DNA from: Emiliania huxleyi CCMP1516
Taxonomy: Eukaryota
DNA: 64,000 bases
Assembly (NCBI RefSeq): GCF_000372725.1
Contig: NW_005201287.1
Location: 1,023,081-1,087,080 of the forward strand
Direction: 5' to 3'
Part shown: positions 18,385 through 56,958 of the stretch, piece after piece
Layout of the letters: every line of letters begins with the position of its first letter
Position numbering within the stretch: the first letter of the stretch is position 1
The notes under the pieces: model-generated
Seen by the model: only the letters and a program-made list of their open reading frames with translations
Told to the model about the DNA's origin: nothing
Databases searched by the model: none
Position numbers and translations under genes: made by a program

Positions 18385-18553
18385 ACTAGAGCTGAGCGCT
18401 TCTCTGTGCTTTTGCCAGTCTTTTCTTTTTGTCGATTTTTGAGTACCACCTGCGGGACGCGGCCACGAAAGGTGTGTACAGCGCAGTTCCAGCGGACGCA
18501 GCGAGCGTCGGGACTCCGTCTCTGAGCTTGATGATCTCGCAGTGTGACCGCAG

Positions 18554-19192
18554 ATGATCTCGCCAGTCTCTGCGCTGTGTGCTGCTGGCTTTGCCGCCGC
18601 GCTGTATGCGCACCGCTTTTGGATGCCGCCGTGCGTGCTCAAGGAGCCGGAGCGGTGCCGCGCCTTTGGTCGGCTGTCGTACTTCACCGTGCAGACCAAC
18701 CTGATCAACTTTGCGTACCACACACTACGCTGCCTCGCGCCGAAACACCCGCTCGTCGGCCGGCTGCACCCGCTCGCCTTTGCCACGGCCAGCATGCTGA
18801 CAGTCTTATACTACAGTCTCGACCACTGGAACGCGCAAAAGGCGGCGGGCGACCGGAAGTGGATCGCCAAAGGCTACACCAGGCTCCCGCTCGGCAACCA
18901 CGTCGAGCACGGCCACGCGCTGCCGCTCGCACTGCTCGACGCGCTCTGCCTGCCGCGCGCGGCCGCGTCCGCCAGCGACGTGCTCTGGATCAACGGCGGG
19001 TACGGCGCGGCGTATTTCGCGGTGATGGTGCTGCTGGGCAAGCGGCTCAACGGGGAGTGGATCTACCCCGTGCTCGACGACCTCGAGAAGGGGTTCGGGC
19101 CGGCAGGCCCTTACCTGCTCGCCGCTGCAATCATCGCGATTTCCCTCCTGCTCGGCCTCGCGGACCGCTCCCTGGCCGCGGGCGCGGCGTGA
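18554..19192 (+). CDS. FAR-17a/AIG1/ADTRP-like membrane protein
   Basis: FGRLSYFTVQTN, LYYSL, NHVEHG and GEWIYPVL, with the conserved Thr and His of this family. Confidence 0.8.
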   Translation: MISPVSALCAAGFAAALYAHRFWMPPCVLKEPERCRAFGRLSYFTVQTNLINFAYHTLRCLAPKHPLVGRLHPLAFATASMLTVLYYSLDHWNAQKAAGDRKWIAKGYTRLPLGNHVEHGHALPLALLDALCLPRAAASASDVLWINGGYGAAYFAVMVLLGKRLNGEWIYPVLDDLEKGFGPAGPYLLAAAIIAISLLLGLADRSLAAGAA

Positions 19193-19207: not shown

Positions 19208-19871
19208 TAGGGTTGTCAAACGTTAACTTTGGGCCTAACAGTTGCACAATTGTTGGCTGAAATCCTCAACGTTTTTCAAGTGTTCTCCCCAGCCCAAGCT
19301 GTTACTGTTTGCTGTTGTTACTGTTGTTCAGTGGTCAGCAAGCAGAAAATGTCAAAAAACCCGGGTAAACCAAAAATACGTTTTGCGTTTTTCCCGGGTA
19401 TTTTTTCGCATTTCGGGTATATTACCCGCACTGGACGCTGGAGATCGTCGTGGTTACTTCCCCCAGGATTGGTCTTCACTGCCCGCGGGAACACCCTCGG
19501 GCGGCCGGGTGGGGCTGCGTGCGGCTGGAGCTAGCATGGCTCGGTAGAGCCGAGACCCCGTGTTGAGCTTGAGGCGGCGCTCCCGTGGGCGGCTGTGGAA
19601 TCGGTAGATTCGACCTCAGATCTCCAGTATTCTCATCCCAGTGGATGAACGTCCGGACGTCCCTTTGTGTTCCTCTCGCCGTCCGCCAGCGAGACGCTCT
19701 GTCGCTGGCGGCCGCAGTTTTCTGTGACCAGAGAAGGGTCACTGCCAGGCCTTCCTTATTGTTGTTCAGCCGGCCTAATGTTCGCTACTGTTGTTGGGGA
19801 GCCCCACTGTTGTTCTGTTGTTACTGTTAACACTAGCAACACTGTTCAGCTCTTAACGTTTGACAACCCTA
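19208..19871. mobile_element. hAT-type MITE (664 bp)
   Basis: 19-bp perfect TIR TAGGGTTGTCAAACGTTAA (19208-19226 / 19853-19871) and 8-bp TSD GTCGAGCA (19200-19207 / 19872-19879); AT-rich, no real ORF. Confidence 0.92.
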
Positions 19872-21192
19872 GTCGAGCACTGCGCTGAGTCGCTCCTGAG
19901 AGGAGCTGTGTGTCGCTCTGTGGGTCGGGGCGCGAGACGGTTTGCAGGGATCCAACAGGCGGAGTGGAGGCTCGAGGGGCGTCTCAGGAGAGTTCGGCGT
20001 GGCTGACTGCACGCTAAAGGCTACACGCTCGCACACCACTTGCAGAGTGGCTCTCCCAGGCGCTCACCCCACGGCGGAGGCACGCCAGGCCCCGGGCAGC
20101 CGGCCGTCACTCGCCTAAAAGCGCCTAAGCGGCCTAAGCGGGGGGTGCTTAGGGTGCTAAGGCGCTTAGGCGGCCCTTGCGAGCGTAGGCCCGTAGCGGC
20201 GTGGTGATATCGTGTAATACAGGTGACTCCGATGACACTCATGATGCCCCTGCTAGTGTCATCGCTCAGAGAGCAGCCTCACGTGCACGCAGTGTGCAAT
20301 CTTTACCGGTATGGGAGTTTTTGGCTAATCAAACCCAAGGCCTGCACTAATCAAAAAGTGGTACGGGATACCAGTTGCCTCACGGAAATCAAAGCGAGTC
20401 GGAGTGCCTTCTTGGTGGCAAAATCGGCAAAATCGGCAAAATACCGGGTATTTTGCGGGTACTCGCCTCTGCTGATCCCCACTATCGGCTTGCCTCACCG
20501 CTCTCTTGCATCTCTGCTACCTCTCCCCGCACTATTCCCATCTGCGTGACGCCACGGCGTCGCCACCTCACCGTTCTCACAGCGTGCTCTCTCTTCAGTC
20601 GCGTGCTCGCGCCCACCCGCCTCCCTCCACCCTTCGGCCACACTCCCCCTGTCTCTCACCGCGTAGCTCCGCCCCCACCCCGTTCGCCTCTCGCGCCGCG
20701 AACGCCGCACTCATCGTGTCGCCGCCTCACCTCGCCACCCCGCCTCTTGGGCACTGCCGCAGGCGCTAGCCGCGTTGACCTCGACCTAACACGAGGACGC
20801 GTCCATGACGCGCCGCCTACCGCCACCGCCGAAACTCGACGGCAGCGCCCGTCGCGGCGGGCCAATCCCGGAGTATATTTCCGTGTCCACACGCAGTGCA
20901 CCTCGGCGCTATCCGGTCGCGCTTTCGGACAGGTGTCACCGCACCGCGTGAAGCGCATACGTTTTTTACTACCCGCGTCAATTGTCCGTCCATCCGCCAC
21001 TTTCCCGAGCCTTGCACGGTATTTTCCTTGCAGAGCTCTCTCTCTCTCGGTCTCGCCGCTCACCCCTCACCGAGAGACACACACACACCCACATCTAGGC
21101 TGTTCCCTCGTTTGAGACCGACACAAACCACGTCACGCCAAACAGCAAAAGCGATCGTCCTTTCACTGCACGGCCTAGTGGGCCAATGCCTC

Positions 21193-21714
21193 CTATGGGT
21201 CGAGGTGAATTGAGTAGCCCTTCCTGCAGTAATAGCACACCTGCTCGGCCGGGTTCTTCTCTTCCGAGCAGCCCGGCATGGTGCACTTGGAGCTCCCCTT
21301 GTCCTCGGCGGGGTGGGACGCGGCACCGTTTTGAACTGACATCGACACCGCGCCCCCGTCCACCACCACCGTTCCTCCTTCCGTGAAGCAGCGGCCAAGC
21401 GCAGCCTGCCCGTCTTGCACAGCGCTCGCCGTGCTGGCCGCTGCCGTTGAAACAACGACCTCACTCGCGGGCGCGATCGTGATGTCCCACGGCTCCTTAA
21501 GCACATCGCAGCACGTCTTACACATGGGGCCGCTTGCGTCTAGCCCAAGACGTGCGAGCACACCATCTTGCCGGCAGTGCCGTCCACACACGCAGCAAGC
21601 GACGAGCATCCCGCCGTCCGGCATAACGTTGACCACTTCCCACAGCTGAATCTCACGTGCCTCCGATGCTGTAAGTCCGGTGTGCAATCCCACCTGCAGC
21701 TTACCTGACGGCAT
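21193..21714 (-). CDS. Cys-rich (putative zinc-finger) ORF inside the element
   Basis: CCVCGRHC...MCKTCC and CTMPGC...VCYYC clusters; first ATG at 21714 (the track ORF extends to 21822). Confidence 0.45.
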   Translation of the reverse strand: MPSGKLQVGLHTGLTASEAREIQLWEVVNVMPDGGMLVACCVCGRHCRQDGVLARLGLDASGPMCKTCCDVLKEPWDITIAPASEVVVSTAAASTASAVQDGQAALGRCFTEGGTVVVDGGAVSMSVQNGAASHPAEDKGSSKCTMPGCSEEKNPAEQVCYYCRKGYSIHLDP

Positions 21715-21738
21715 TGCCCTGGTCACCACTCTCAGAAC

Positions 21739-21809
21739 GGGTCGACCTCTTTCGGACGACCTGGGTCGACCTCTTTCGGACGACCTGGGTCGACCTCTTT
21801 CGGACGACC
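21739..21809. repeat. 3 x 24-bp tandem repeat GGGTCGACCTCTTTCGGACGACCT
   Basis: Read directly; followed by an AT-rich tract at 21821-21856. Confidence 0.9.
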
Positions 21810-22165
21810 CCTGTTGTGCCAAAAAACAAGAATCTTAAAAGAATTTAAATAATTTCGCCACGCGCCTCAGACGGCTTGCACCACGCTCTTTCCCTTAAAC
21901 TCTGTTGGTGGTGGCGTGCCCCCCCCCCCACCCCCCTCCCGCAGCTATCGATATTTCTTTCTTTCAGCGGCTTTCTCTCCGAGCGCCTTTCATTCGCTTA
22001 CACCTCAAATGACCGTCCGCAATCACCCGGACACATGCGTGCGAATCTCAATCAGCGCCGTACCGATCACCGAACACGTCTCCGCTCACAAATGGGTCAG
22101 AGGCGCATATCACCGGCCAGCAACTCCGCCCCCCTCTCGCCTCCCCCCTTCTGGGCATCAGCTCT

Positions 22166-22516
22166 CGGGCTCGGCCGCCAACATGGACATGGACATGGAC
22201 ATGGACAGACGGGCACCCCCTCGCGCCGCTCGGCCCGCCCTCTTCCCCCTCCCCCAAGCACGCACCTGGGGCGGGCGCGAGCCAGACAGACCCTTGCGCT
22301 TGCCTCGAGCGCTGGGGGACTTCGGGCTCGGCCGCCCAACATGGACGTGGACATGGACATGGACAGACGGACGCCGGACCCTCGCGCCGCTCGGCCCCGG
22401 GCGCCGGACCCTCGCGCCGCTCGGGCCGCCTCCTCCCTCCCCCCCCCCCCCCCCCCCAAACGCACCTGTCGCGGGCGCGCAAGCCAGACCCCCGCGCTTG
22501 CCTCGAGCGCTGGGGA
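22166..22516. repeat. Duplicated blocks containing (ACATGG)n
   Basis: cgggctcggccgcc-aacatggac... at 22166 and 22323; gcgcttgcctcgagcgctgggg twice (~22296 and ~22494). Confidence 0.8.
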
Positions 22517-22540
22517 ACGTGATGACCAGCACGACGCGCC

Positions 22541-25500
22541 CTACCCGGTGCGCTGCGCCCTCTTGTCCACCTCGAGCTGCGCCGCCGCGACACGCTCGTC
22601 CGAGAAGCTCCCGACGCCGAGGCGCGCCTGCCAGAGCACCGACTTCGGGTGCAGCTCCATCTTCTCCCGCAAGTCGAGCCCGCCGTCGTCCACCGCGATG
22701 CCCGAGATCTTTAGCTTCTCTCTCGGTCGCGTGCAGGCCGTGTAAAGCAAGTTGCGCTGCCCCTTGAAGCGGTCGGCGTGCACGTGGACGTTCTTCGCCT
22801 GGCTCCCCTGCGCGGAGTACACCGTCACGATGTCCGAGTACCTACAGTGCAGATACTCACACGCCACTCACCATTCCATACTAGCCTGGTAGTTACCCCA
22901 CGCATTGCCAGGCGTACCGCCACGGCGGGCCCCACACCTTGGCGACGCCGTGCTCGCCGAGGTCGACCCACACGAACTCCTCCGGGATCCAAGCCGACGG
23001 GCACCCCTTCAACATCGGGCACGTCACCTCAAGCTGCCGCGTCTCCGCGTGGTAGCACACGACGTCGAGCGGCTCGCCCTTGCTCAGGTACCACCCACGG
23101 CCAGCCTGTCGACCCGTCCGCACGCCGGCCTTGCCGATCGGAAGGTAGTGAACCCGCTGGCCCGGGAAGGTGTACACCTCCGTCAGCATCCGCGTCGCCT
23201 GACTCGCACGCCGCTGCGCTGGCCGCGGCCAGAAGCGAAGGTCGGACCCCCCCGGTCCGCCAGACTCGCATCGGGCACGCACCACCGATAGCCCCGGCTT
23301 CGACGCGAACTTCTCCCTCGCAATCGCGTAAATCTCGAGGTTGTCGTGCACCACGTCCATGAAGGTGTCGTCGGCGACTGTCGTCGAGCACTGCTGCACG
23401 ATCGGCCAGACCGCGTCGAAGTCCTCGCGCCGCAGACCCCGGCTGAGCTTCAGCAGGTCCGCGTCGCCCGTGCGGTAAATCGTCTCGAGCGGGAAGCACG
23501 CGAGCTCGCCGTTGCTCTCTGCGCTCGTGATGAGATCTCCCTCCCAGATCATCTCCCGATCGCCCGCCCCAGCGGCGTCGTTCACAGGGGGCGTCTGCAG
23601 CCCGTCCATGAGCAGCACAAACCTAGGCTTGTTGCCGCTGCACACGCGTGGTGCGACTTGATGCGCCATGTCCAGCTGGCCGAAGTGCGTCTGCGCCGCC
23701 TCGTCGCACACGAGGGTGCTCTTGGCGAACACCCCCGCCGCCTTCACCTTCCTGGGATCGTTGCGACGGATCCCCGCCACCACCGCATCCGCCGACCACG
23801 TCTCTCCGAGCCCGACTCCCAAACCGGTGAACGTCGTGAGCGCCTCGATCTCGGGCGCGAAGCTGCGCCGCGGCAATACCTTGTCGATCGCCTCTTGGAT
23901 CGCGCGCCGTGCTCCATGAGTGGGAGCGAGCACCGCGATGTCGTCCGTCCGCAGCAGCGCCAGGATCTCGATCAGCGCAGTCTTCCCGCAGCCGGCCGGG
24001 CCAGACACGATGGTCACCTCCTTGCTGTCGACAAGCACGCCGTGCAGCGCCGCTCGCTGCGCTACATCGAGCCGCGAGTACAATTGCATAGCCTGCGCCT
24101 GCTTGTTCGCAGGTGCCTCGCCGATCACCTTTAGCAGCGCTGCCGCAACCTCATCCTCACCCCTCGGGGCGAGCATGTCGATCACCTCGTCCACGGTCAG
24201 ATTTGCGCCATCGCCTGTCAGGCCAAGCGCGCGCGCAGCGTCGCCAGGCGAGGTCGCGTCGATTGCGGAGTCGCCCGCGCGCCCGGTCCCTTGCCCGAGC
24301 CTCGACGGCGTGGAGAAGGCGACGCCAGCCGCCGCCGCCGCCCCCGTCGCCTCCGGCGCCGTCGCCACCGCCGGACTCTCCACTACCGCCGCCTTGTCCG
24401 CCGCCGCCGCCGCCTCTGCCCCCACCGCCTCCGTCGCCGCCGCCGCCTTCAACGCCTCCGCCGCCGCCTCCGGCGCCGCATCGTCCTCATCCGAGGATCC
24501 GAGATCCATCGGCAAGTCCGCCGAGTCGCCCGGGCGGGACTCCTCGCGCGGCGCCGCATCCTCGTCGTCGGAGAATCCGACCTCCATGGGCGCTCCCGCG
24601 GAGTCGCCCAAGCGAGGAGCACCGTTGCTGGACTCGTCCTCCTCGCTGCTGGCAACGACCGGCACGCGTGACGACAAACCGGGCTCCACGACGGCGGCCG
24701 CCATCGCAGGAGCCTCTCCCGTCGACGCAGGGCTCGCCGTCGCCGACACCGCAGCCATTGTGCGCCTAAACTTTCGCACGTGCAGCACCGAAGCCGCAGC
24801 AGCCTTTGAAAGCCGCAACAATTCCTCTGCGAGCTGTAGCTCCTCTTCATCGTATTCATAGCCCGCATCGCCATCTCCATCCTCGCCGCCGCCGTCGCCG
24901 CCGCCGTCGTCGCCGCCGCCGCCGCTGTCGCCGCCGCTGTCGCCGCCGCTGTCGCCGCTGTCGCCGCCGCTGTCGCCGCCGCCGTCGTCACCGGCCGCTG
25001 TGCTACGCGTCGCCTCGGCGAAGCCGCCGCCGATGTCGCCGCCGCCGCTCTCCTCGACGCCGTCGCCTGCCCCGCCGTAGCCCGCCTCACCGCTGTTGCC
25101 AGCCTCGCCGCCGCCAGCCTCACCACCGCCTTTCTCGCCGCCGCCCACCTCGCCGCCGTCGACCTCCTCGTCGCCCGTCGCCTCCGCTCCACTGTCGAGC
25201 ACTGCCTGCACCTCTCCGCCTGCCTCACCGCCAGACAAGATTGCGGAGCCGGCCGCGTCGCCCGCCGCTTCCGTCGCCTCGGGCGAGAGCCCCGCAGCGG
25301 TCGCATCGAGCGCCGCCTGCGCCGCCGAGCCCGCTACCGCCCCAGCAGCAGCCGCGGTAAACTGAATGCGCTCGGCCTCCTCGCCGCCGTAGAGCACGAC
25401 CGCGGCACCGCCGCCCAGCAGCACCAGAGCCATCTCCTCGGCGCCGCCCTCGGCGCCGCCACCTGCGCCCTCGCCGCCGCCCTCGTCGCCGCCCGCCTCG

Positions 25501-26334
25501 CCGCCGCCCCACACCCGCTGGTCCGAGTCGGACGTGACCGCCGAACCATACACGCCCGCGTAGTACACGCCCTTCTTGCGCGCGAAGGTCAACTCAAGCT
25601 CGGCCAGAGCCTGCGGCGCGAGGTACTGTATGGCCTCCCCCGCCTCGCCGCCATACAACGGCCGGGCAACGCCGCCGCCCAGCATCAGTCGCCGGCGCCC
25701 GGGGGCGCCATCCGGGAAGCGCATCAGGGCCGGCCGAGGTTCCACCGTCGGCTCGGCGATGGGCATCGAAGTTACCTCCCGCTCCTCGTCCGACCACTCG
25801 GAGGTCGACACGGACCACCAGTTCACAGACTCGTTAGCGCCGCTGTTGCCGTCGCCGACACCCTCGCCGCCCTGCATCGAGTCGTCCTCCGAGACCTCGA
25901 CCACCTCGCCTCCTGGCATAGAGACGTCCTCCGAGCCCTCGACCACCTCGCTGCCCTGCATCGAGTCGTCCTCCGAGTCGGTGACCACCTCGACCCAGAC
26001 CTCACGAGGATCGTCGCCGCAGCCGTCCTCGGCGCCGACCCCTTCGTCGCCCTCGCCGCCGCCGCCGCTGCCGCCCCCTCCGTCGCCGTCGTCGCCGCCC
26101 TCCGCCACGCTCTCGTCGCTTGCCCCGCCGTCGCCTGCCTCGGCCGCATCGCCCGCCGCTGTCTCCGCCGCCTCGGGCGAGAGTCCCGTTGCGGTCGCAC
26201 CGAGCGCCGCCTGCGTCGCCGAGGACGCTACCGCCCCAGCAGCAGCCGCCGTAAACTGGATGCGCTCGGCCTCCTCGCCGCCGTAGAGCACGCACGCAAC
26301 GCCGCCGCCCAGCAGAGCCAGAGCCATCTCCTCC

Positions 26335-26414
<80 letters not shown>

Positions 26415-28244
26415 CTCGCCGCCGCCCTCGCCGCCGCCCTCGCTGCCGTCGCCGCTGCCGTCGCCCTCGCCTCCACCGCCGTCTACGTCGCCGCCGTCGC
26501 TGCCTCCCTCCGCCTCGCCCTCGCCTCCGCCTCCCTCCGCCTCGCCCTCGCCTCCGCCGCCATCAGCATCGTCCTCGCCATCCCCTCTCTCCGCCCCGTC
26601 GAAGCCGCCGCCGTCCGCCTCCCCGCCGCCTCCGCCGCCTCCGCCTCCGCCACCACCGCTATCGCCACCCTCGCCGCNNNNNNNNNNNNNNNNNNNNNNN
26701 NNNNNNNNNNNNNNNNNNNNNNNNNNNNNNNNNNNNNNNNNNNNNNNNNNNNNNNNNNNNNNNNNNNNNNNNNNNNNNNNNNNNNNNNNNNNNNNNNNNN
26801 NNNNNNNNNNNNNNNNNNNNNNNNNNNNNNNNNNNNNNNNNNNNNNNNNNNNNNNNNNNNNNNNNNNNNNNNNNNNNNNNNNNNNNNNNNNNNNNNNNNN
26901 NNNNNNNNNNNNNNNNNNNNNNNNNNNNNNNNNNNNNNNNNNNNNNNNNNNNNNNNNNNNNNNNNNNNNNNNNNNNNNNNNNNNNNNNNNNNNNNNNNNN
27001 NNNNNNNNNNNNNNNNNNNNNNNNNNNNNNNNNNNNNNNNNNNNNNNNNNNNNNNNNNNNNNNNNNNNNNNNNNNNNNNNNNNNNNNNNNNNNNNNNNNN
27101 NNNNNNNNNNNNNNNNNNNNNNNNNNNNNNNNNNNNNNNNNNNNNNNNNNNNNNNNNNNNNNNNNNNNNNNNNNNNNNNNNNNNNNNNNNNNNNNNNNNN
27201 NNNNNNNNNNNNNNNNNNNNNNNNNNNNNNNNNNNNNNNNNNNNNNNNNNNNNNNNNNNNNNNNNNNNNNNNNNNNNNNNNNNNNNNNNNNNNNNNNNNN
27301 NNNNNNNNNNNNNNNNNNNNNNNNNNNNNNNNNNNNNNNNNNNNNNNNNNNNNNNNNNNNNNNNNNNNNNNNCTGCCGGGCAGTCCGACCTCGTCGACAC
27401 CGCCTCCGCCGCGACCTCCCAAGCCGACGAGGTCGTCGCCGCCGTCAACGACATCGAGATCGAGCACGGTTTCGCCACCAGGAACGACGCCAGGCACAGC
27501 GCCGCTGCTCAAGCCGCCAGCGCCAGCGCCGCCGCCAAAACCGCCACGCAGGCACTCGTAGCCGCCAGCGACAACACCCACACCATCGTCGCCGACCTCT
27601 CCGCCTGCGAGAGGTGAAGGCATGGCATCCGACGCGCATGCTTTCCACAACTCGTAGACGAGATCCGCGTCTCCCTCCTCGTCGCAGCTGGATGCGCCAA
27701 TGTCCAGCCTCGGCGGCGACTCGGGCCGCTCGCCGGCAACCTTTGCAGCCTTTGCAGGACTTGCAGCCCAGTACTTACGTTTTCTCCACTGGCTGATCGC
27801 GACGCCGCGGATCACGTGCACGCCCTCGACGCGGCAAAGTACCGTCTGCACGTCCATGGGGGTCTTGGCCTCGCGTATGGATGGCATGAACTGCCAGGCC
27901 AGCTCCTTGCTGTCCGGATGCAAGATTGATTTTCGACACCAGCACGGCTTAAACTTCGTGTACTTCTGATGCTTGTTGGGCATTCGTTTGACTTGCAATC
28001 GTCCCAGCTTGGTATGACCTTGGTACGACCCAAATCTCGCCCTCGATTTCTTTCCCAGACTTTTCGGTGCCCGTCGTTTCCACGTTATTTTCAGCGCCGT
28101 TTGCGCCCGGACATGATTTTTTTGGCGCTCGGGCATTCCCCTGCGCGATTTCTTTTCACGAGAGCAAGTAGAAGGTGTCCGTCCCCTTCCGCTCGACGCT
28201 GGAGTCACGGTCCCCGACGCCACGCCAGCCCCAGCTTGCTGCAC
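22541..28244 (-). CDS. Pif1/RecD-family SF1B helicase with a long low-complexity mosaic N-terminus (gap 26678-27372; intron ~22842-22917)
   Basis: Walker A GPAGCGKT, motif Ia LAPTHGA, Walker B VCDEA, DGLQTPPV, LETIYR, and after the intron VTVYSAQGSQ and LYTACTR. Continuity across the N gap is unproven. Confidence 0.8.
26678..27372. other. Assembly gap
   Basis: Run of N. Confidence 1.
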
Positions 28245-28359
28245 AGCAACTGCGCCACAGCGGCGTCCCGGCCGCGGCCTGCTTCACCCGCTGTAATTAC
28301 AGAAATTCTCCTGCTGTAATTGCTTCTACAACAGGCTCAAATCTCGAAAGCCACGCCTC

Positions 28360-29065
28360 ATGCCGATCCTGGCTCTACCACCGCCAATCACACCACCGCC
28401 GCCACGCCCACCCCACGCCGTCAGGCCAAGGACGTCAAACAGACCGGGCCTACACCGCGTTATCACCGGCCTTGCCACCGGTACGGTACGGGCGGGGGCC
28501 GCACCACCGGCCTCACCGCGCACCACCGGCCTCACCACCACCGCCACCACCCTCCGCACCGCCCCTCCTCCGCCCTCCCTGTTGTCGCAGACGCCTCCCT
28601 CGCGGGGATTTACGCCGCCTCTCCGCCGCCTTTCCGCCATCCTCGCCTCCGCCCGCCGCCCTCGCCGCCGCCGCCCTCACACCCGCCGCCGCTGCCGCCG
28701 CCGCCGCCGCCACCCTCGCTGCCGCCGCCCGCCCCGCCGCCGCCCTCGCCTCCGCCGCCGTCCGGGATGCCGCCGCTCTCGCCCTCGCCTCCAGCCGCGC
28801 CGCCCCCGTCGCCGCCTGCCCGCCCCGGCGCCCTCCCCACGGCGGTGCTGTGCGCGCCTTCGCACAGTGGCGCCACTGTGCCAGTTACTGTCCCTGCGCC
28901 AGTGACACCAGAGCCTTTTTTTTCACGGATTCAAGATCAAAGATTACCTGCGCTTCGCTCGCCATCCCGAGATCACCCACACACGACCGTATTACACATT
29001 TGCACCCCGACTCACGGTCTCACATTTGCACCCCGACTCAAACCTCTTGCGACGCACCGCGGTGA
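28360..29065 (+). other. His/Pro-rich (SPPPP) low-complexity segment inside the element, possibly a captured host gene fragment
   Basis: HHRPHHHRHHPPHRP...PPPSPPPPSHPPP in one + frame; no clear start or domain. Confidence 0.3.
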
Positions 29066-32000
29066 TCACTCGCGTCTTCATCAGCCTCATCGCCGCAGCC
29101 CGGCGCTCCGTCGCCTCCGTCGAGCGCCGCGATCGCCTCGGCGACCGTCTCGTCGTCGAGCTCGAGCTCGTCGACGGCCGCGCCCAGCAGGGGCGCGTCT
29201 CCCGCCTCGCTCGCGCTCGCCTTGGCGGTCGCCGCCGCCCCGGCCGCGTACGCCGCGTTGCCGATCGCGGCCCGCGCCGAGAGGTTGTACCACGCCCAAT
29301 ACGTCTCCCGGAAGCTCTCGCCCAGCGATGCGGCCGCGCCCACCGCGAGCGGCTCGACGGCTGCGTTCTCGGCCTGGGGTTCGCGCTGCCAGCGCAGCCG
29401 CACCGCGCCGCCGCAGTGCACGCACCGCCGCTCCTCGAACCGTGCGACCGTGGTCGGCCACTCGATGGAGGGTCGGCCTGCGCAGTCCTCCGAGCCGCAC
29501 TCGAGGATGCAGATGTCCTCGCTCCGCCGCCGCACGCGCCCGTACACCTCTGCCGGTGTGCCCGCCGTCGGAAGCACGTGCAGAGCCCCCACACGCAGGA
29601 TCGAGCCCTGCAGCTTCGCCGGAAGCTTCCGCAGCATCCGCAGCTCGCGCGTGCGGTCCCTGCGATCCAGCCCGAACGCGATCGCGTCGTCCTCCGACCG
29701 AGGGGCCCACGCGTGCGTCGAGAGCATCGCCATCCGCAGCGCCGGCGCAGCGCGCAGCCGCTCCTGCCCCTCCTTGTAGAGCCGAAGCTGGTGCGCCTCC
29801 ACCGCGTCGCTCTCCGCCTCACCCTTCCGATGGCGGAGCCGGAGCTGCGCCGCCTCGTACTCGTCCACCTCCTCGCCGCCACCGGCCGCACGCGCGCTCG
29901 CCTTGAAATACTTCGGCAGCAGCGCGACGCCGAGCCGCCGCTGCAGCTTGCGTCGTGCGCTCGCCACCTCCTCCACCGCCTCCGCCACCTTCGCGTCGCT
30001 GCGCGCCGCCTGCCGCTCCGGGCACGCCTGCGGCAGGTCGCCGAAGCCGCGCACGCCACCCACCTCCGGCACACGCGACGCCGAGAGCGACGTCAGCGGC
30101 GCGCGCTCCACGCTCCCGAGCGCGTCGCGCCGCATCCAGTAAGCGCCGAGATCGCGCGTGCGCAGGTCTGCGCGATACACCCGATTCATCGTCCGAGAGT
30201 TGACCTGGCGGTGGCCCAGCACTCGCGCAGCGACGGCGCCGTCGCCCGCCGACGCCGGCTGCTCGCACGCGTCTTTGCGCAGGCTCCACGCGCCCACCTT
30301 ATGCCGGCTCATGCCAAGCTGGCGCCCCGTCTCGATCAGGCGCCGGCAGAGTCGCTGCACGTCGAAGCTCTCGGTGAACAAGAAGAGGCCCGTCGCCTCG
30401 TCGACGCCTGGGAACAGAGGCCGGTCCAAGGCCGCCTTGTCGAGCACCCAGCCATCCGCTCGGCACGCCGCCACTAGCGCCGGGAGCGTCTCGTAACCCG
30501 TGTCCGCCAGCTCGAGCCCGGCGAACCCGCTCGGCTCGGCCACCTTGCGACGCAGCGCCGCCGCGCTCGCTTCGCTCAGCTTCGAGTAGCACGCCCTGAA
30601 GCTTCCGCAGCGCAGCAGCAGGCGCACCATCGCCAGCGTCCCGATGCGCATCATCTGGTCCGAGTCGGGCGTGATCGCCGTCCCAAACTCGTAGCACGCG
30701 TAGTACTCGCCCTTCTTCCGCGCAAAGGTCACCTCCATCCGGATGAGGGCCTCGAAGTCGCCCTCGGTCATCACGCCCGCCCCGCCTAGTCCCCGCAGCA
30801 GCTCATCCGCGGCGATGGACAGGTCGCCCATCGTCAGCGGCGGCAGCTCGTGCCTGCCGGCGAGCGGCACGGCTCAGTGTCATCTCGCCCCATCGCACGC
30901 CAACGCCACCGTTCTACTCGCCTCTCTCTCTCTCTCTCTCAGCGGGAGACGCGCGCCAGTGGCTGTCCGAATCGGCCGCGTCCGCCGCGTCGTTCACCGC
31001 CATGCCCGGCCGGCACCCGGTCTGCCGCGCGAAGCACAAGTAGGCGTTCATGATGAAGGCCACGTTCACCTCGAACGGCTCCATCAGCTGCGTGTCCTGC
31101 ATCTGGTACTCTCCCACCTGGAAGAGGTGCTGCTTCGTGCACGGCTTCGTCGTCGCCTCGCGCAGCTCGGCCATCGTCCGCCGGCTCGCCACCGCGCTCG
31201 CCCTCTCGCTCGCCGCCCGCTGCGCCGCCTCACTCTGCCCGTGCGACGCGCTCTCCTGCGCCGCCTCGCGGCCCGCCGCCCGGCCGGCGGCTCCTGCCGC
31301 GTCCTTCATCCCGCCGCCGCCGCCGTCGTACAGCGACATCACCTGCTTGGTCACCAGCCGCCAGTACTGCCTCGCGTCGTCCGGCATCGCCGGCCAGATC
31401 TCGCGCCACACGTGGTTCTTCATGTGCTGCAGCGCGACGTAGACCGTGTTCTCGCCGCGCCCCGTGCGCACCGTCGGCTCCTCGTCCCGCGCGTCGCCCC
31501 GCTCGGTCGCGTGCCACCGGCTCGCCCTCGGCGCGGTGATTCGCGTCGTCGCCAGCCACTTGCCGAAGCGGATCGTCCACCGCACCGTCGGGTGCAGACC
31601 GAGGGCCGTCCGCTGCATCGGCACGCTCTTCCCCGCCGCGGCCTGCGTCGCCAGGAACTCGCGCAGCCGCAGGCGCACGCGCCGAAGCTGCACCGACAGC
31701 GCCGGCCCGTGTGGCGCTAGCATCGGCCGCCCATCGCCGCACGCGGCCTCCTCCTGCCGCTCGTCATCCTCCGCCTCGAGGGCGTCCGCCAGCGCGCTGC
31801 GCCGCACACCCCGGCGCACAGGAGGCGGCGCCGGCCGCACCTCGGCCGCCTCGGCGTCGCCCGCGGCACGGGCGCCCCGCTCGCCGTCCGCGCGGTCCAT
31901 CGCCGCATCCCCATCCCCGTCTGCGGCAGCGCCGCCTGCGCCCGTGCCGGCCTGCTCTGCGACGGCTCGCCACCGCTCGTCGTCCAGCATGTGCCACCAC

Positions 32001-32572
32001 CGCCGATCCGGGTAGCCGTCGTACTCGACCTGGTGCGCGATCCGTCCGTCCCCGTCCTCCTCCCGCGCCATGACGGTCGCAGGGTACCACCGCTCACTGT
32101 CGCAGAAGATCTCGAGGCGCGATCCGGTGGACAGGACAGTGTGGCCGTCGAGCGCCGCCCTGGCATCCTCGCGCTGTCGCTTCCGCCGCTTCGCCTTCGT
32201 CTCCTTGCTGCGCAGCAGGGTGTAGTTCGGGCCCACCTCCGCCACGCTGTCCAGCAGCTGGGCGGCGCTCGCCATCTCGACCGCGTCGTCCTCCGGCGGA
32301 AGCTCCGCGTCGCCCGCGGCCGCTTCCCGAGCGCGCTCGTCGCGCATCCGCTCGTGGTGGGCCTGCCGACGCGCCACGCCGGCGCCCGTGTGCCTCGCCG
32401 CCGCGTCCGGTGACCGCATCGGTCGCTGCCACAGGTCGTCCCACAGGTCGTACCAACAGGTCGTCCCAAAGGGGACGCATCCAAACCGCCGCATTTCGCC
32501 CGCCGAAAAGTCTCCCACTCGCTCTGCCCCAATCTCGAACCAATCTCGAGTCGTCTCACTAGTTACATACAT
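29038..32572 (-). CDS. Tyrosine recombinase with N-terminal Tudor-like domain and C-terminal Cys finger; GC-AG intron 30854-30956
   Basis: Catalytic set in order: R (FARQTGCRPG), K (FARKKG), SLR (WSLRK), H (RVLGH), Y (MNRVY). Tudor-like GSRLEIF..RWYPATV..HQVEYDG; C-terminal CGSEDC..CVHC. The intron joins the two track ORFs in frame (..HW|HELPPLTMGDL). Confidence 0.82.
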
Positions 32573-33415
32573 ACCTGGAAAAACCCGGGTATACCCGGGT
32601 AATACCCGCACTTTTGCATGGTTTCGCCCCCGGGACCACACCGACAGCCGCTACAACTACTTAAAACCCCGCATACCACTTTCGCATACCACTATACCAT
32701 ACCACTCCAAAACTAATCAAAATATCGCCAAATACCAGTCTCATACCGGTAAAGATTGCACACTGCGTGCACGTCCACTGTCTACCAGGCCCTGGTCGCA
32801 CACTGGACTGCCACTGAGCTGCGCTGGTGCGGAAACTCAGCATCAGGATCTACTGGCGCTCTTCTCGCAGCCGCAAAAAAGAATTTTTATAATATTCCTG
32901 TAGGCGCGGCGCGCCACGGTGAGAGGCGGATCTTCACGGCCGCAAGTTTGTGTGAAAGGAGGCGGTCTTCCCGTGGATCCTCGCGCGCTCCCACCGGCAG
33001 GAGGGCGCCCGCCGCCGTCTTCCCGGGCGAGCTCAACTTGTCGGCAGATGTTCAGTGTAAAAACTTTTTCATCGTGGCCGCCAATGCCAGCGAACGCGAA
33101 CATACTCGCATCGATCTCGCTCTCGCACGACATTTGCGATTTGGATTTTCAGGATTCATCTCCGCGGACGCGCGGAGACTACTGCGCTCGTGTCGCGCGC
33201 GGCGCCACCCCCCCCCCCCCCCCCCCGGGGGGCGGGCCATTGCCCTAACTCACCTACTGCCTCACACACCCGAGGGCGGAGCAAGCGAGAGGCCTGCAGG
33301 CTGCTAAAGAGCGCAGGCCAGCTCCTCCTCGCCCGCCCTCGGTGCGCCCAGAACCGAGAGAAGCAGCCCTGCCTCGCCCTCCCTACTTTTGTTGCCGCGC
33401 CGGAGGGGCGGGGAG

Positions 33416-35143
33416 TCAGTCCGAGTCGGACAGCTCGCGCGTGAAGAGCGTGCTCGACGGGTGGAGCCCCAGCTCCGACAGCGAGGAGCCGCGCAGCTCG
33501 CGCCCAAACTCCTTGCGCGGGTAGCTCGAGGCGAGGCCGAACTCCTCCCCGTCGGGGTCGGACGCCTCGACCCAGTCAACCACAGCCTGCAGCGGCGCCT
33601 GTCGCAGACGGCGATGCGTCAAGAAGCGCTCTCCCTCCTCCCACTCCCCCCCCCCCNNNNNNNNNNNNNNNNNNNNNNNNNNNNNNNNNNNNNNNNNNNN
33701 NNNNNNNNNNNNNNNNNNNNNNNNNNNNNNNNNNNNNNNNNNNNNNNNNNNNNNNNAGCCTCGGGAGGGAAGGGGCGGATCAACGGTCGACAGTCCGGCA
33801 GCTAGACCGCCAGGGAAGGACCGCCGGACCCCGCCGCAGGCTCCGCCGGGAGGCAGTCCGCCTTTGCCAGCCGCGCCTCCCGCCGCGCCGCCGCCGCCGC
33901 CTCTGCGCCAGCCGCCTACGGGCGCGCCGTGGACATGTCCTGGACATGTCTCGCAAGGCTCGGAGCACCTGGTTGGGCCAGCCGCCTCGGCCTCGGCAGC
34001 CTCGGCCGCCTCGGCGGCGGCCCTCTCGGCCTCTTCAGCGGCGGCGGCGGCGGCCACCTCTGCCTCCTCCCGCGCCTGGTCCTCTGCGAGCGCCCGCTCG
34101 TACTCGCTCGCTTGCTCCTGGGGGGGGAGGGGGAGGGGGAGGTGCGCCGTGCGCCTTGCAGGGCGGGGAGGGGTGGGTCGCCCGAGCGCCGCTCGCTCCT
34201 GGATGATTGCCCGGTCGACCGCGCGCGCCGTCAGCTCCTCCCGCGCCTCCTCGAGCAGCGGAGCCCACGTCTGCAGCGTCTCGGACAAGGCGGCGACCGT
34301 CCCGTCCACGTCGCGCAGCCGCACGCCGGCAACCTGAGCCAGCGCCTGCGCGCCGCGACCCCGGCCGGCGCCCTCGGCCTGCGCGAGCACGACGAGCGTG
34401 GGCAGCTCGCGCGGCCGCAGCGCCTGCCGCACCGCCCGCCCGTCCGCTGTCGCGTCATCTGCCACCCAAAAGACAAAGTTTTCGTCCACAAACGCGGCAA
34501 AGAGCGCATTCGCAATCAGCTCGTCGCAGGTGGAGGCGGCGGCGGGGTGGGCGGCGGAGTGGAGGTAGACGAGGCAGAACTTGGCCTCCCTCCGCGCTCG
34601 CGACAGCGCCTCGGAGCAGCTCCCGCGGAAGAAGCGCGGGTGCGTCTCGCCGTGCAGCTCCTCAAACTCGGCGGTGAAGCGCGCGGCGGCCTCGGCGGCG
34701 GACTCGCGCGGCGGCGGCGCCAGGAAGCCGAGGAGGCGCAGCGGTGTGAGGAGGAGGAGGTCGGCGACGGGGAGCACCAGCGAGAGCAGGCCGGTGCGCT
34801 GAAGCAGCCGCCCAAGGCCGACAAAGAGGAGGCGGAGGTGAGAAAAGCCCGGGAGGCCTCCGACGTAGCTGAGGAAGTCGAGCACGCCGGCGCCGCTACC
34901 GGCGGCGGCGGCGGGAGGCTGGCGCGCCGGCGGGCGCGCCGCCGGATCGCCGCCGTCACCGTGCGCCTCCCCGCCGCCGCCGCCGCCGCCGCTGCGCGCC
35001 GCAGCACTGCTTCCGGCGGCGCTGTCCTCTTGGTCGAAGTGGAGCTGGACGGCAACCTCCAGGTTGCCGCCCGCCGCGTCGAGGAGCGACTGGCTCGCCT
35101 CCTCGCTCAGACCCGTGATGGCCGCGACTTCTGAGGCCGCCAT
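33416..35143 (-). CDS. UBX-domain protein (UBA-like + UAS + UBX; FAF2/PUX10-like); introns 34118-34198 and 33916-33985; gap 33657-33756
   Basis: AAITGLSEEASQSLLDAAGGNLEVAVQLHF; HPRFFRGSCSEALSRARREAKFCLVYLHS; FVDENFVFW; SSYPRKEF..SLSELGLHPSSTLF. Confidence 0.88.
   Translation of the reverse strand: MAASEVAAITGLSEEASQSLLDAAGGNLEVAVQLHFDQEDSAAGSSAAARSGGGGGGGEAHGDGGDPAARPPARQPPAAAAGSGAGVLDFLSYVGGLPGFSHLRLLFVGLGRLLQRTGLLSLVLPVADLLLLTPLRLLGFLAPPPRESAAEAAARFTAEFEELHGETHPRFFRGSCSEALSRARREAKFCLVYLHSAAHPAAASTCDELIANALFAAFVDENFVFWVADDATADGRAVRQALRPRELPTLVVLAQAEGAGRGRGAQALAQVAGVRLRDVDGTVAALSETLQTWAPLLEEAREELTARAVDRAIIQERAALGRPTPPRPARRTAHLPLPLPPQEQASEYERALAEDQAREEAEVAAAAAAEEAERAAAEAAEAAEAEAAGPTRCSEPCETCPGHVHGAPVGGWRRGGGGGAAGGAAGKGGLPPGGACGGVRRSFPGGLAAGLSTVDPPLPSRGXXXXXXXXXXXXXXXXXXXXXXXXXXXXXXXXXXGGGEWEEGERFLTHRRLRQAPLQAVVDWVEASDPDGEEFGLASSYPRKEFGRELRGSSLSELGLHPSSTLFTRELSDSD
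33657..33756. other. Assembly gap
   Basis: Run of N. Confidence 1.
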
Positions 35144-35564
35144 CGCGCTGTTTCGCGAAAAATAATACCGGCGCCGCGTGGCGTGGAGCGGTTGAGCATC
35201 CCTCCGGGGGGGGGGCTCTGCGCCGGGAGGCGTTCTTGGAGGCTAAACCCCTTTTTAAATTCGGGGCCGACTCCGCTACGCTCCGACCCGAATCGTCTGG
35301 TCGTCGTCTCTTAACAAAACATCGTCTCTTTCACTTTCAAACAAAAACTTTCTCTCACTTTCTTCTCGAATTTGGAGAGAGAGAGATTTTTGAAAACCAA
35401 CAAGATTGGGCTCGGCAGACCAACAAGATTGGGCTCGGCAGCTTGAATTTGGAGGGCCTAAAAGTTAAGGTGTTGCTTCAAAAGGGGCTAGTGCTAGAAA
35501 AGAGGTCGGGCAAACAACAATATCAAACAACAAACAGGTCGCAGCGTGTACCTAACGCGCTCCG

Positions 35565-49873: not shown

Positions 49874-50487
49874 TTAGGAGAGCGTGGCGGCGAGGTCGGC
49901 GGCGTTTACGGTGTCGTGCGACAACGATCACACGGCGTTCGCGTCGAACTGAGACGCCGCGCCACTTAATTCTTTTTGAGCTAGACTTCGTTGTTAATTG
50001 GAACAAGCGAAGGCACACACGACATGACGCCAAACACACGATTGCACGCACCGCACCGCACCTCGCACCCGCACCCGCCGCCCCCCCGCCCCCTGCCCCG
50101 CCTAGGTGGGAAAGAGATGAGGAGATGGGACAGCGAAGGAGGAGCCACGAACACGTATGGGAGGTTTCGTTGATGCGTCACGCTGCCCGGCGTCTCTCAC
50201 TTTCCGGGACAGCCCCGCCCTTGTGAGGCAGGAGGGTGTGACGACTACCCCGTACGCCCTGTTGCTTCCCCTCGCAACTACGACGCTTCCGCGGCGCATT
50301 TCCGTCATCATCCGGCCGCGCCCGAACAATCAAAATCGTCGCATTCTGGGGACGGACGCAACTCGTTGTCGTCTCTCGCCGCCGCTGGCTGCGCTGCCCT
50401 CAAGAGTCAGTGCTGCACCGTGCGATACAGCTGGCCGCACCTGACTCGTTCCTCACCTTTCCGCCCCCACCCTCCGCCAACAGGACC

Positions 50488-56400: not shown

Positions 56401-56958
56401 GGCGTCAAGTACGACCGCGCCGTGCTCGAGATGGCGGAGGAGCTCTCGAGCGGCGGCAAGCTCGACGCGGCGGCGGCGCAGCGCCTTTGGGAGTCGCGGG
56501 TCGCTGACGGTCGCGGAGTGACGGAAACGGAGCTAGAGACCCTCCGCTACATCATGGAGACGTACAAGCTCGACAAGAAGGCGCAGGCATACCTTCAGTC
56601 GGCCGCGAGCGGCTCGTCGTCGAGCGGCTCATCGTCGAAGCGCAGCCTGTCTGACACCGACCTCGGCTCTGGAGGCGCGTCTTCCAAACGAGGCCGGTCG
56701 GGCGGCAAGAGCTACTACCAGCAAATCGACGGGGTGAACTACGACCGCGAGCTGCTCGAGATGGCGGAGAAGCTGTCCAAGAGCAACGGTGGCAAGCTCG
56801 ACTTGGCGGCCGCCCAGAAGCTTTGCCAAGAGGCGTGCGAGGATGGACGTGGCGTGACGGACTGCGAGAAGCGCACGCTGCAGTACATTGCGCAAACACA
56901 CAAGCTGAACCCGGCAGCCACGACCTTCATGGAGATGGAGTTCGAGCTCTCGGCTTAG
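50488..56958 (+). CDS. ~2150-aa protein: seven copies of a YYxxIDGVxYDR domain flanking Ala-rich repeats and a very long Ala/Lys/Glu coiled coil
   Basis: Single uninterrupted ORF with ATG at 50488; four N-terminal and three C-terminal domain copies; near-exact 315-bp tandem duplication (50885-51507) with further copies at 56066-56480. Confidence 0.85.
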   Translation: MPKGYYKEVDGVNYDRKLLEKAQRLARENAGTLSKDAVEKLWVDVRSDGRNRGHEDGVWDVELRTLLHIADTLKLDKSAAALMKKETAVHEASAGGSGSGADSSSGAGKRSRGSVERFEAGPASGKAAGSGSGSGSGSGKRKKSGSSDDYYQIIDGVKYDRALLEMAEELSSGGKLDAAAVEQLLGAMQDAGKVTPTELATLQYIAESYKLDKKAQAAMDKGLAAAGGAKSRSLGGNGSGSGSGKRKKSGSSDDYYQIIDGVKYDRALLEMAEELSSGGKLDAAAVEQLLEAMQDAGKVTPTELATLQYIAESYKLDKKAQAAMDKGLAAAGGAKSRSLGQDPITVIDGVEYDAGILALAEELAAANGGTLTMADVQRLWRERTLDFGDVTAVEMRTLSYVVDHFKMDKKASEFLVKEVQAWNATHLGGAGNVHVTKEGAVAAMAAQAALDAGLSPEAARAAGEAAALAVSLGRTQAEALKEGAAAAKAAQAALDAGLSTDAALVAGELAAKAVSEGATLPEAMKEASAGGKAAQAALDAGLSTDAAQIAGSEAAKAIHDGKSAADAAKVGIAAGKAAQVALDAGLSKQAAQVAGMAAAKAVGEGRSPAQAAKEGLVAGQAMQAALDSGASTEAASVAGLMAAKAVSEGKTPAQALKEGAAAAKAAQKLIDAFVKEGLSPEDAAEAASAMLAAGPPQPDIAAVADLIEGGLDPEEAIAQAHNIAKNKENAAAARGLAASEEEAAKKAAAAAAAADKKAKAQQAELAKAEAAADKERAAADAAAKKAAAAKAAADKKGKDQAAAESKAEAAAKKVKDLADKAAAKKKAADQTAAEKAAEEKAAKAAKDDAAAKKKGAADAAAATKKAAADAAAADKKAKDQAAAAAKAEAAAAKERALADKQAKDAAAAKAAAAKQEKELSSEQTKAEAAAAKAREAEKEARDAKKAADQAAAATKSKEKDAAKAKADADAAMERATKAAKVAEAAAKAAAEAEKKAKEAAADKSAADKAAAQEGKSADAAARKAAAEKAAAEKRMRDQGVTKAKAEAAETKELAASEKAAAKKAAADAAAAEKAAEEQAAAQAKADAAAAKKVAAAAAAAAKRATADAAAAEKLAKDQAAEQAKAEKVAAKEKEASAAAAKKVAAEKAIAEKKAKEQAAANAKAEAAANKERAAKEAAAEKTLAADKLAAEKAAKDKAAAKAKADADAKKKDADAEATAAKKAAAAAAAADKDAKDKAAEQAKAEAAANKARAAAEAAAKKAAAERAAADKQAKEQAAAKAKADAATEKEKVAAKDAIDKAAAAQKAALEKQASDEKAKAAKAEADKAKSGAASEKAAAAKAAADAAAAEKLAKEQASEVAKAEKAAAKERGAAEAAAKKAAAEKAAADRQAKEKAQADAMAAAAVKKEKDAADKAAAKRAAADRAAADLSGAEKLVRQASDETEKAKKQADAEAAAARKAMEGGMAAEKEAKAAAAAKAKAEAAAAKAAAAAEAAAKKAATEKAAADKQAKDAAAAKAKADEASSKAQKADKEAAAARAAADKAATDAKQKEAAAEKAKKLADAAQDKADAAADAATKAAKAASDAEKAAKAAATAADKAAAAAEKAGDSAEAAAKKAAADKASADAKAKQQAAAKAAADAADAKDKAAADKAAAKKAAADAAAAEKAAQEQAAAAAKAEAAAIKAEAAATAAAAKKTAADAAAADKLAKDQSSAHGKAADAAGKWRDSASAALKQAAAEREAADRKSASHAAAKRKADAAELAEREAYETAQSMKGAPSPRKRQRSVSFGQSSAEMAAEIAVRAAQSAADKMSAEEKAAADRLGHDASKRTLSAMDDDLLRALSRQESSSGGGGSSGDYYQIIDGVKYDRALLEMAEELSSGGKLDAAAVEQLLEAMQDAGKVTPTELATLQYIAESYKLDKKAQAAMDKGLAAAGGAKSRSLGGSGSGSGSGKRKKSGSSDDYYQIIDGVKYDRAVLEMAEELSSGGKLDAAAAQRLWESRVADGRGVTETELETLRYIMETYKLDKKAQAYLQSAASGSSSSGSSSKRSLSDTDLGSGGASSKRGRSGGKSYYQQIDGVNYDRELLEMAEKLSKSNGGKLDLAAAQKLCQEACEDGRGVTDCEKRTLQYIAQTHKLNPAATTFMEMEFELSA

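What the first reader, a model, noticed from the sequence alone, without database searches (positions are those of the whole stretch)
20281..32774. 12.5-kb tyrosine-recombinase element with terminal inverted repeats and a Pif1 helicase (Starship/Crypton-like) in an algal genome
Seen: perfect 33-bp inverted repeats at 20281-20313 and 32742-32774, with shared subterminal motifs (CTAATCAAA, AAAGTGGTA, GCGGGTA). A spliced tyrosine recombinase begins ~200 bp inside the right end, pointing inward, followed on the same strand by a Pif1-family helicase and a Cys-rich ORF. No DDE transposase, HUH/Rep, RT, capsid or PolB is visible. Known: Cryptons are YR-only DNA transposons with short terminal direct and subterminal inverted repeats. 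Fungal Starships have a terminal YR 'captain' plus cargo. Pif1 is normally paired with HUH-Rep in Helitrons or with some MULEs. Inference: this is a YR-mobilised, helicase-carrying element that may represent an undescribed class, possibly excising as a circle.
Basis: partly seen in the sequence, partly recalled or inferred. Interest (0 to 1): 0.95.

Follow-up and report, generated by a model that had tools for sequence, protein, structure and literature searches.

The report
Recombinase-helicase transposon inside a MITE
The inverted repeats belong to a small, common 384-base repeat, and what sits inside it at one exact spot is a 12-kb insert that carries a tyrosine recombinase of an apparently undescribed family and a helicase, likely a Crypton- or Starship-type jumping gene of marine haptophyte algae.

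Summary
The 33-bp inverted repeats, the spliced tyrosine recombinase (YR), the SF1B helicase and the Cys-rich ORF are real. The repeats are not the ends of the YR element. Contigs from 4 of 4 runs join 20460 to 32571, giving an empty 384-bp MITE-like repeat. The 12,110-bp insert (20462-32571) lies in a GGTA^TACC palindrome, with no duplication beyond one base. Its YR-side end recurs with other flanks: a 97.6% copy breaks off at that point, a 70-76% relative keeps the terminal motif, and contigs of one run show that end on the other half of the palindrome. The YR has a Cre-like fold, intact catalytic residues and 449 related clusters, but no Pfam family at threshold. The helicase follows the YR in wild populations, but many YR copies appear to lack it. 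In relatives it is fused to another YR-like domain. The far end is seen in this copy only. Verdict: a new variant of the Crypton/Starship kind, not a TIR-plus-YR class.

The parts
20281..20461 (.). Left half of the host MITE-like repeat (33-bp inverted repeat at 20281-20313; ends in the left half of the target palindrome)
20462..32571 (-). Inserted YR element, 12,110 bp; the cut may lie one base to the left at both ends (one shared letter); no terminal repeats of its own
   Evidence: joint 20460->32571 in 4 of 4 runs; loose ends behind 20461; ends 12/60 identical in inverted register and GC skew flips at 20462
32555..32571 (-). YR-side terminus, motif TGTATGTAA..AGTGA, 152 bp upstream of the ATG
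   Evidence: shared with L001 (140 bp upstream) and L002 (157 bp upstream); seen behind 20461 in X5
30957..32419 (-). YR exon 1: Tudor/Agenet-like reader, helical core-binding region, first catalytic Arg (TGCRPG)
30854..30956 (-). GC-AG intron of the YR gene
   Evidence: intronless relatives P0006, L002, L007, L008
29038..30853 (-). YR exon 2: Lys hairpin, WSLRK, VLGH, catalytic Tyr, Cys-rich C-terminal part, SQEV end
22918..28136 (-). Helicase gene, long exon (start codon uncertain): CxCxKS/HTH-like module, Gly/Asp/Glu linker spanning the gap, SF1B helicase core from about 24100
26678..27372 (.). Assembly gap (695 N) inside the low-complexity linker
   Evidence: not bridged by any listed contig
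25518..25595 (-). 81-nt piece of the YR gene (30655-30735, 83% identical) embedded in frame in the helicase ORF
22842..22917 (-). GT-AG intron of the helicase gene
22541..22841 (-). Helicase last exon (UvrD_C_2 motifs)
21193..21714 (-). Cys-rich ORF, 173 aa from the first Met, no family found
32572..32774 (.). Right half of the host MITE-like repeat (second GGTATACC palindrome at 32588; inverted repeat at 32742-32774)

Best explanation
A 12,110-bp insert carrying a tyrosine recombinase and an SF1B helicase sits at a GGTA^TACC palindrome inside a 384-bp inverted-repeat unit that also exists empty, and it is most likely a TIR-less DNA transposon of the Crypton/Starship kind that its own recombinase would cut out and insert. 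Shown: the empty site; the insert's limits; one terminus recurring with different flanks and on both halves of the palindrome; a Cre-like fold with conserved catalytic residues under purifying selection. Inferred: the YR binds its own ends and a short (G)TA^TA(C) target, excises the element as a circle or single strand, and integrates it without target duplication. The Tudor or chromo reader would steer it to particular chromatin. The helicase is probably an optional accessory. Because donor and target share only one base at the crossover, it would most plausibly help resolve or replicate the strand-exchange intermediate. The inverted repeats belong to a separate non-autonomous repeat, probably moved by an unknown DDE transposase.
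For: Empty site: joint 20460->32571 in X5, X9, X1 and X6 (depth 66, 715, 79, 42; shorter side 42, 37, 21, 21). X9 record 23 and X2 record 10 carry 50-65 nt of this repeat's left arm and run on through the empty palindrome. Mobile terminus: L001 is 97.6% identical over 2,651 nt, ends at 32574 and has a 557-nt flank with no match in the window. L002 (70-76% identical) shares 16 of 18 terminal letters at the same distance from the ATG. In X5 the consensus of 3 contigs behind 20461 begins with the 14 letters of this terminus. Far limit: GC skew goes from +0.06 to -0.48 at 20462. YR: top Foldseek hits are Cre structures (E 1e-3, prob 1.00; model of L002, pLDDT 80.6). Among covered homologs R is kept in 10/10, K 18/19, second R 24/27, H 23/24, Y 21/24; dN/dS 0.20-0.27 on the catalytic exon. 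Helicase link: X1 and X6 contigs tile 27521-29152 with 0-1 differences each. P0111, P0097 and P0098 fuse the same helicase to a different YR-like domain.
Against: The far end (20483-20513) has no cover in 4 of 4 runs, so the 12.1 kb is shown to be inserted once, not to move as a unit. No 4-6-bp direct repeat, which most Cryptons and Starships have. The terminal motif was found in only 2 of the 5 loci that reach upstream of the YR start. The X5 evidence is a 14-letter loose end, and those contigs were found because they hold the target motif, so site preference is biased; L001 and L002 flanks share only TA or GTA. The tool warns that joints at likeness under 95 or side under 30 often come from other repeats (true for X1 and X6), and many contigs at the motif belong to other repeat families. 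L001 has adapter-like ends (recalled), so a chimera is possible. None of 11 YR loci holds the helicase (all 4.6 kb or shorter). None of 297 proteins holds both this YR and the helicase. X5 record 11 leaves the window at 29017, just behind the YR stop. Exon 1 against L001 gives dN/dS 0.78 on 20 differences.
Confidence: 0.75

Rival explanations
1. One reading: the inverted repeats are the ends of one 12.5-kb YR element, and the 384-bp form is its internally deleted non-autonomous derivative.
For: The repeats are perfect and enclose all genes. Short non-autonomous derivatives are usually more abundant than full elements (Kojima and Jurka 2011, passages read), as the short form is here.
Against: A 97.6% YR copy lacks the repeat arm and breaks at the same junction. 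The same terminus is joined to the opposite half of the palindrome in X5. A distant relative keeps the inner terminus motif. Composition changes at 20462, not at 20281.
Confidence: 0.06
2. Composite or one-ended event: a short YR-only Crypton-like element (about 32571-28950) is the mobile unit, and the helicase block is separate DNA that was captured or nested behind it once in this lineage.
For: Summed contig depth in X9 falls from 533 (31382-31601) to 134.5 (28951-30307) to about 1 (27908-28363), and X5 diverges at 29017. The far end is seen in no run. No other locus links the two genes.
Against: The whole 12,110 bp lies between the two halves of one empty site. A piece of the YR gene is built into the helicase ORF. 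The YR-to-helicase spacer is near-identical in two metagenome studies. The helicase family is fused to another YR-like domain elsewhere. This rival is compatible with most of the best explanation and differs only on whether the helicase travels.
Confidence: 0.3
3. A capsid-less remnant of a Polinton-like virus or transpoviron (YR plus SF1 helicase).
For: PLVs often encode a YR and an SF1 or SF3 helicase (PMC5499653, passages read).
Against: No capsid, packaging ATPase or polymerase hit. Both genes have spliceosomal introns and host-like GC. No relative of the YR (20 candidate stretches) or helicase (18) was confirmed in viral contigs.
Confidence: 0.07
4. Misassembly at the 695-N gap joins two unrelated insertions in two copies of the multi-copy repeat.
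For: No listed contig bridges the gap, and the repeat is multi-copy.
Against: The ORF stays in frame across the gap. A profile from helicase relatives alone picks the module right of the gap as best of 1,301 segments (E 3.9e-5, next 0.19), in the same order as in those relatives. A YR-derived piece lies left of the gap.
Confidence: 0.04

Closest known systems
Crypton DNA transposons (Kojima and Jurka 2011, PMC3212892, outline and parts 1-2 of section 3 read; active CryptonF-1_cRei, bioRxiv 10.1101/2022.05.23.493040, passages read)
   Same: YR is the only recombinase; no TIRs; short target motif; many shorter copies; some Cryptons carry a second gene (C48 peptidase).
   Different: No 4-6-bp direct repeat (one base only); no GCR1_C or DUF3504 hit; Trp in place of the His of HxxR; Tudor or chromo reader and Cys-rich tail; SF1B helicase as second gene; 12 kb; haptophyte host, not in that paper's host table.
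Starships (PMC10104507 and PMC11162782, passages read)
   Same: YR is the first gene at the 5' end, pointing inward, followed by other genes; target-site preference; the only Pfam hint is DUF3435.
   Different: DUF3435 is far below threshold (13.3 bits against 25.8; best E 0.0021 in 4 of 19 relatives); no direct repeat; far smaller; Starship YRs were not found outside Dikarya in that fungal survey; faithful movement of cargo not shown here.
Polinton-like viruses, Tlr1 and transpovirons (PMC5499653 and PMC12220804, passages read)
   Same: YR and SF1B helicase in one element; no target duplication.
   Different: No capsid, ATPase or polymerase; intron-containing genes; no relatives confirmed in viral contigs.
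Helitrons (Rep-HUH plus Pif1; recalled, not read)
   Same: Pif1-like helicase, no TIR, no target duplication, one well-defined end and a variable other end.
   Different: No HUH Rep; the recombinase is a Cre-like YR.
MarCry-1_FO and Tec elements (YR inside a TIR element with a DDE transposase; PMC3212892, passages read)
   Same: A YR gene lies between TIRs.
   Different: No DDE gene here, and the TIR unit occurs empty, so this is nesting in a MITE, not a fused autonomous element.

Membership tests
   Empty 384-bp unit in 4 of 4 runs; YR copy without the arm; terminus on the other half-site
Crypton | Catalytically intact YR as sole recombinase; no RT, DDE or HUH | tested here: met
   the 695-N gap is unread but lies in a low-complexity in-frame linker
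Crypton | No terminal inverted repeats | tested here: met
   insert ends 12/60 identical in inverted register
Crypton | 4-6-bp terminal direct repeats (CryptonF and S; absent in A and I per PMC3212892) | tested here: not met
   one shared base at the joint ('both' = 1)
Crypton | YR falls in a described group (F with GCR1_C, S, A or I with DUF3504) | tested here: inconclusive
   no GCR1_C or DUF3504 hit; Atlas feature hits at 0.92-0.94 to Phage_integrase, diatom YR, DUF3504 and NDC10_II clusters alike; no reference sequences for a tree
Crypton | Excision, presumably as a circle | not testable with these tools
   only contigs were available; no end-to-start joint among the 15 joints shown (305 not shown)
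Starship | DUF3435 captain | tested here: not met
   E 0.038, 13.3 bits against cut-off 25.8; 4 of 19 relatives, best E 0.0021; 0 of 37 further relatives at E 0.1
Starship | YR is the first gene at the 5' end | tested here: met
   ATG 152 bp from the terminus; 140 and 157 bp in L001 and L002
Starship | Flanking direct repeats | tested here: not met
Starship | Cargo genes move faithfully with the captain | tested here: inconclusive
   one full insertion; far end not seen elsewhere; spacer conserved in X1 and X6, absent behind the YR in X5
Polinton-like virus / transpoviron | Major capsid protein and packaging ATPase, or TIR-bounded linear genome | tested here: not met
Helitron | HUH Rep domain with the helicase | tested here: not met
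   no Rep hit in the helicase ORF pieces or in 7 relatives
MITE (host repeat) | Short, non-coding, TIR-bounded, multi-copy, with target duplication | tested here: inconclusive
   384 bp, 33-bp TIR, high summed depth in 4 of 4 runs; the only possible duplication is the palindromic ACGT; no empty site at the outer ends among the joints shown

The most novel reading that the evidence does not exclude
A separate superfamily of tyrosine-recombinase DNA transposons in haptophytes and other marine protists, analogous to fungal Starships, in which a dedicated SF1B helicase lets the recombinase integrate almost without core homology or copy the element replicatively from one fixed end. The same helicase family has been recruited by two unrelated recombinases, once as a neighbour and once as a fusion.
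Probability: 0.25. Interest if true: 0.85.

Novelty: new variant of a known kind. Interest (0 to 1): 0.56.

Why it matters
How Cryptons and Starships move is still inferred, and cargo-carrying YR transposons are described mainly from fungi. This is a large, unnamed YR family (449 clusters at 50% identity) with a sharp terminus, a simple palindromic target inside a high-copy repeat, and copies that differ between sequenced populations of a bloom-forming alga. That makes excision, target choice and the role of a helicase directly testable by PCR and long reads. It also shows how a host MITE can pass for the ends of a nested element.

Tried and rejected
No whole genome is held for this window, so no genome-wide copy count. 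The inverted repeat has no exact match in viral contigs or metagenome contigs. YR and helicase have no confirmed relative in viral contigs. The terminal motif gave 28 viral loci, none encoding YR or helicase; taken as chance. Sequence and profile searches of the PDB with the YR found nothing relevant. The first structure model (19 sequences, pLDDT 49.6) gave no fold match; the deeper alignment fixed this. VIA-align searches did not complete, so there are no Z-scores. The two YR types (this family and the one fused to helicase relatives) do not align (probability 0.5%). The CxCxKS module at the C-terminus of P0019 and L005 resembles the helicase-side module by eye, but neither one-sided profile finds the other, so it is not used as evidence. 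A protelomerase or hairpin-end reading was considered and dropped: the EhV86 telomere resolvase ranks only 33rd (E 0.24). Lack of cover at the far end in low-depth runs is not proof of absence. A loose end behind 20461 in X1 (3 contigs, agreement 0.7) might be another junction type but cannot be resolved from a mixed consensus. Earlier-findings look-ups by sequence and place found nothing. Eight paper searches listed no description of a YR-plus-SF1B-helicase transposon in haptophytes; Repbase and subscription journals were not searchable, and no supplements were opened.
Full report
Observation. The inverted repeat is perfect over 33 bp at 20281-20313 and 32742-32774 and occurs nowhere else in the window; shuffles give none. 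On the minus strand lie a two-exon YR gene (32419-30957 and 30853-29038, GC-AG intron), a long ORF that is open across the 695-N gap and ends in an SF1B helicase with a second intron at 22917-22842, and a 173-aa Cys-rich ORF. Both splice junctions are confirmed by intronless relatives. The named homologs are from Emiliania huxleyi (P0032, 94% identical over exon 2, a different copy) and Phaeocystis antarctica (P0290), so the host is most likely an Emiliania-type haptophyte. No whole genome was available.

The inverted repeats belong to a host repeat. Laying contigs of four public runs on 19700-33350 gave a joint from 20460 to 32571 in all four (summed depth 66, 715, 79, 42; one letter fits either side). 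A closer look at 20390-21300 showed loose ends behind 20461 that read on as the sequence from 32572 (X9, 6 contigs). Two contigs (X9 record 23, X2 record 10) carry 50-65 nt of this repeat's own left arm and continue through the intact palindrome. The empty unit is 384 bp. Caveats: likeness was set at 90 and 85, two of the four joints have a side of only 21, and the motif around the site is shared by several other repeat families (loose ends before 20419-20428).

The YR-side end is a mobile terminus. L001 matches the window at 97.6% from 29924 to 32574 and then has 557 nt with no match in the window. L002, only 70-76% identical in the coding region, shares TATGTATGTAA and AGTGA at the same distance from its ATG. 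In run X5 the consensus of three contigs behind 20461 starts with the first 14 letters of this terminus (median length 14). That is the same cut in the palindrome GGTA^TACC, with the element pointing the other way. These contigs were found because they contain the motif, so they show that the site is reused, not how strict the preference is. The unbiased flanks (L001, L002) share only GTA or TA. Three other loci that reach upstream of the YR start (L004, L005, L007) lack the motif.

The far end is less secure. The empty site and a sharp change in GC skew (+0.06 to -0.48) place it at 20462. But 20483-20513 has no cover in any of four runs; only 20531-20650 (about 90% alike) and 20848-21079 (identical, X1) are seen. 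The two ends share no inverted or direct repeat, and the overlap with the target is one base.

The recombinase. 29 relatives were found in the 90% library and 449 clusters at 50% identity with E up to 0.001 (150 listed, mostly fragments). Pfam gives only a sub-threshold DUF3435. A model of the L002 core from 131 sequences (pLDDT 80.6) has Cre recombinase structures as top hits, followed by integron, Tn1549, Xer and lambda integrases; viral hits are phage integrases. Mapped on P0006, the catalytic positions are kept in most covered sequences: R 10/10, K 18/19, R 24/27, H 23/24, Y 21/24; the His of HxxR is Trp in 27/27. The catalytic exon has dN/dS 0.20, 0.26 and 0.27 against L001, L002 and L004; exon 1 against L001 gives 0.78 on few changes. 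Members carry a Tudor/Agenet-like domain at the N-terminus (UniRef name of P0032; E 0.011 for L002) or a chromo domain (3 of 19).

The helicase. It is SF1B: AAA_30, UvrD_C_2, PHROG Dda-like, weak RecD2, with Pif1 structures among the best profile hits. Eleven related clusters were found. Three long relatives (P0111, P0097, P0098) begin with a different YR-like domain (Pfam Phage_integrase E 0.098 and PHROG integrase E 0.007 for P0111; Atlas 0.96 to a cluster with Phage_integrase on 44% of members), then a CxCxKS module and a ubiquitin-like domain. A profile of that module from these three alone ranks the start of the window's helicase ORF first of 1,301 segments (E 3.9e-5; I had spotted the motif by eye first). 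With an 81-nt YR-derived piece left of the gap, this argues against a misjoin or a hidden gene in the gap. Contigs of two metagenome studies tile the YR stop, the spacer and the start of the helicase ORF almost without differences, so the arrangement exists in the sea; no listed contig spans both genes. Against an obligate link: X5 leaves the window just behind the YR stop; X9 summed depth falls from 533 to 134.5 along the YR and to about 1 in the spacer (depth is no copy number); none of 11 short YR loci holds the helicase.

Mechanism. Shown: insertion of 12,110 bp at a palindrome without duplication, reuse of one terminus, and an intact YR. Inferred from the chemistry of Cre-type enzymes (own knowledge) and from the Crypton and Starship literature: excision by the YR, probably through a circle, and integration at a short target. 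With one base of shared core, the second strand exchange needs tolerance of mismatch or replicative resolution, as known for Tn916-type and integron integrases (recalled). A 5'-3' helicase is a plausible helper there. I put about 0.75 on a TIR-less YR transposon nested in a MITE, and about even odds on the helicase being a functional accessory rather than passive or once-captured DNA.

Comparison and novelty. It works like a Crypton or small Starship but fails the direct-repeat test of both and the DUF3435 test of Starships, and it cannot be placed in a Crypton group without a tree. It lacks the defining genes of PLVs, Helitrons and DIRS. Eight searches of the paper library listed no such element in haptophytes; the Tisochrysis survey mentions no recombinase (passages) and a 2026 YR overview has no occurrence of 'helicase' or 'haptophyte' (passages). 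Repbase was not searchable. Earlier notes of this scan describe similar pairings in other genomes; they are unchecked leads, not support.

Verdict. Real feature, wrong boundaries. The TIR-plus-YR class is not supported. What remains is an apparently undescribed YR transposon family with a captain-like layout, a palindromic target in a MITE and an optional helicase: a new variant of a known kind, interest 0.56.

Noticed in passing
window 19210-19869: A second MITE-like repeat with a 17-bp or longer inverted repeat, flanked by TA on both sides, and sharing the CCCGGGTA motifs of the host repeat; the bin 19700-20155 has very high summed depth.
   Followed up: partly
window 20419-20461 and 32572-32610: The motif around the insertion site is an array of GGGTA/TACCC half-sites shared by several different high-depth repeat families; a second perfect GGTATACC lies at 32588, unused.
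   Followed up: partly
P0111, P0097, P0098: YR-like domain + CxCxKS module + ubiquitin-like domain + SF1B helicase in one protein; in P0098 the helicase halves are in swapped order. Possibly a second undescribed element family.
   Followed up: partly
window 20040-20140 and 32775-32800: In run X5 the flanks on both sides of the MITE have the same summed depth (about 50) as the MITE itself, but not in X1; the MITE may sit in a larger amplified unit in that organism.
   Followed up: no
YR family C-terminus (window 29041-29052): 14 of 244 YR-family proteins held (many redundant or fragments) end in SQEV or SQEM despite unalignable sequence before it; L002 and L007 end likewise.
   Followed up: partly
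L005 about 770-890: A run of TTAGGG repeats interrupts the 5' part of a YR relative.
   Followed up: no
L011: YR relative with its two halves in opposite orientation on one contig; inversion or misassembly.
   Followed up: no
window 50242-56958 (+): 2,238-codon purine-rich repetitive ORF with only weak Pfam hits.
   Followed up: no
window 18548-19192 (+) and 33416-35242 (-): Flanking host genes: a FAR-17a/AIG1-like protein and a UBA/UAS (FAF1-like) protein; the nest of repeats is intergenic.
   Followed up: no
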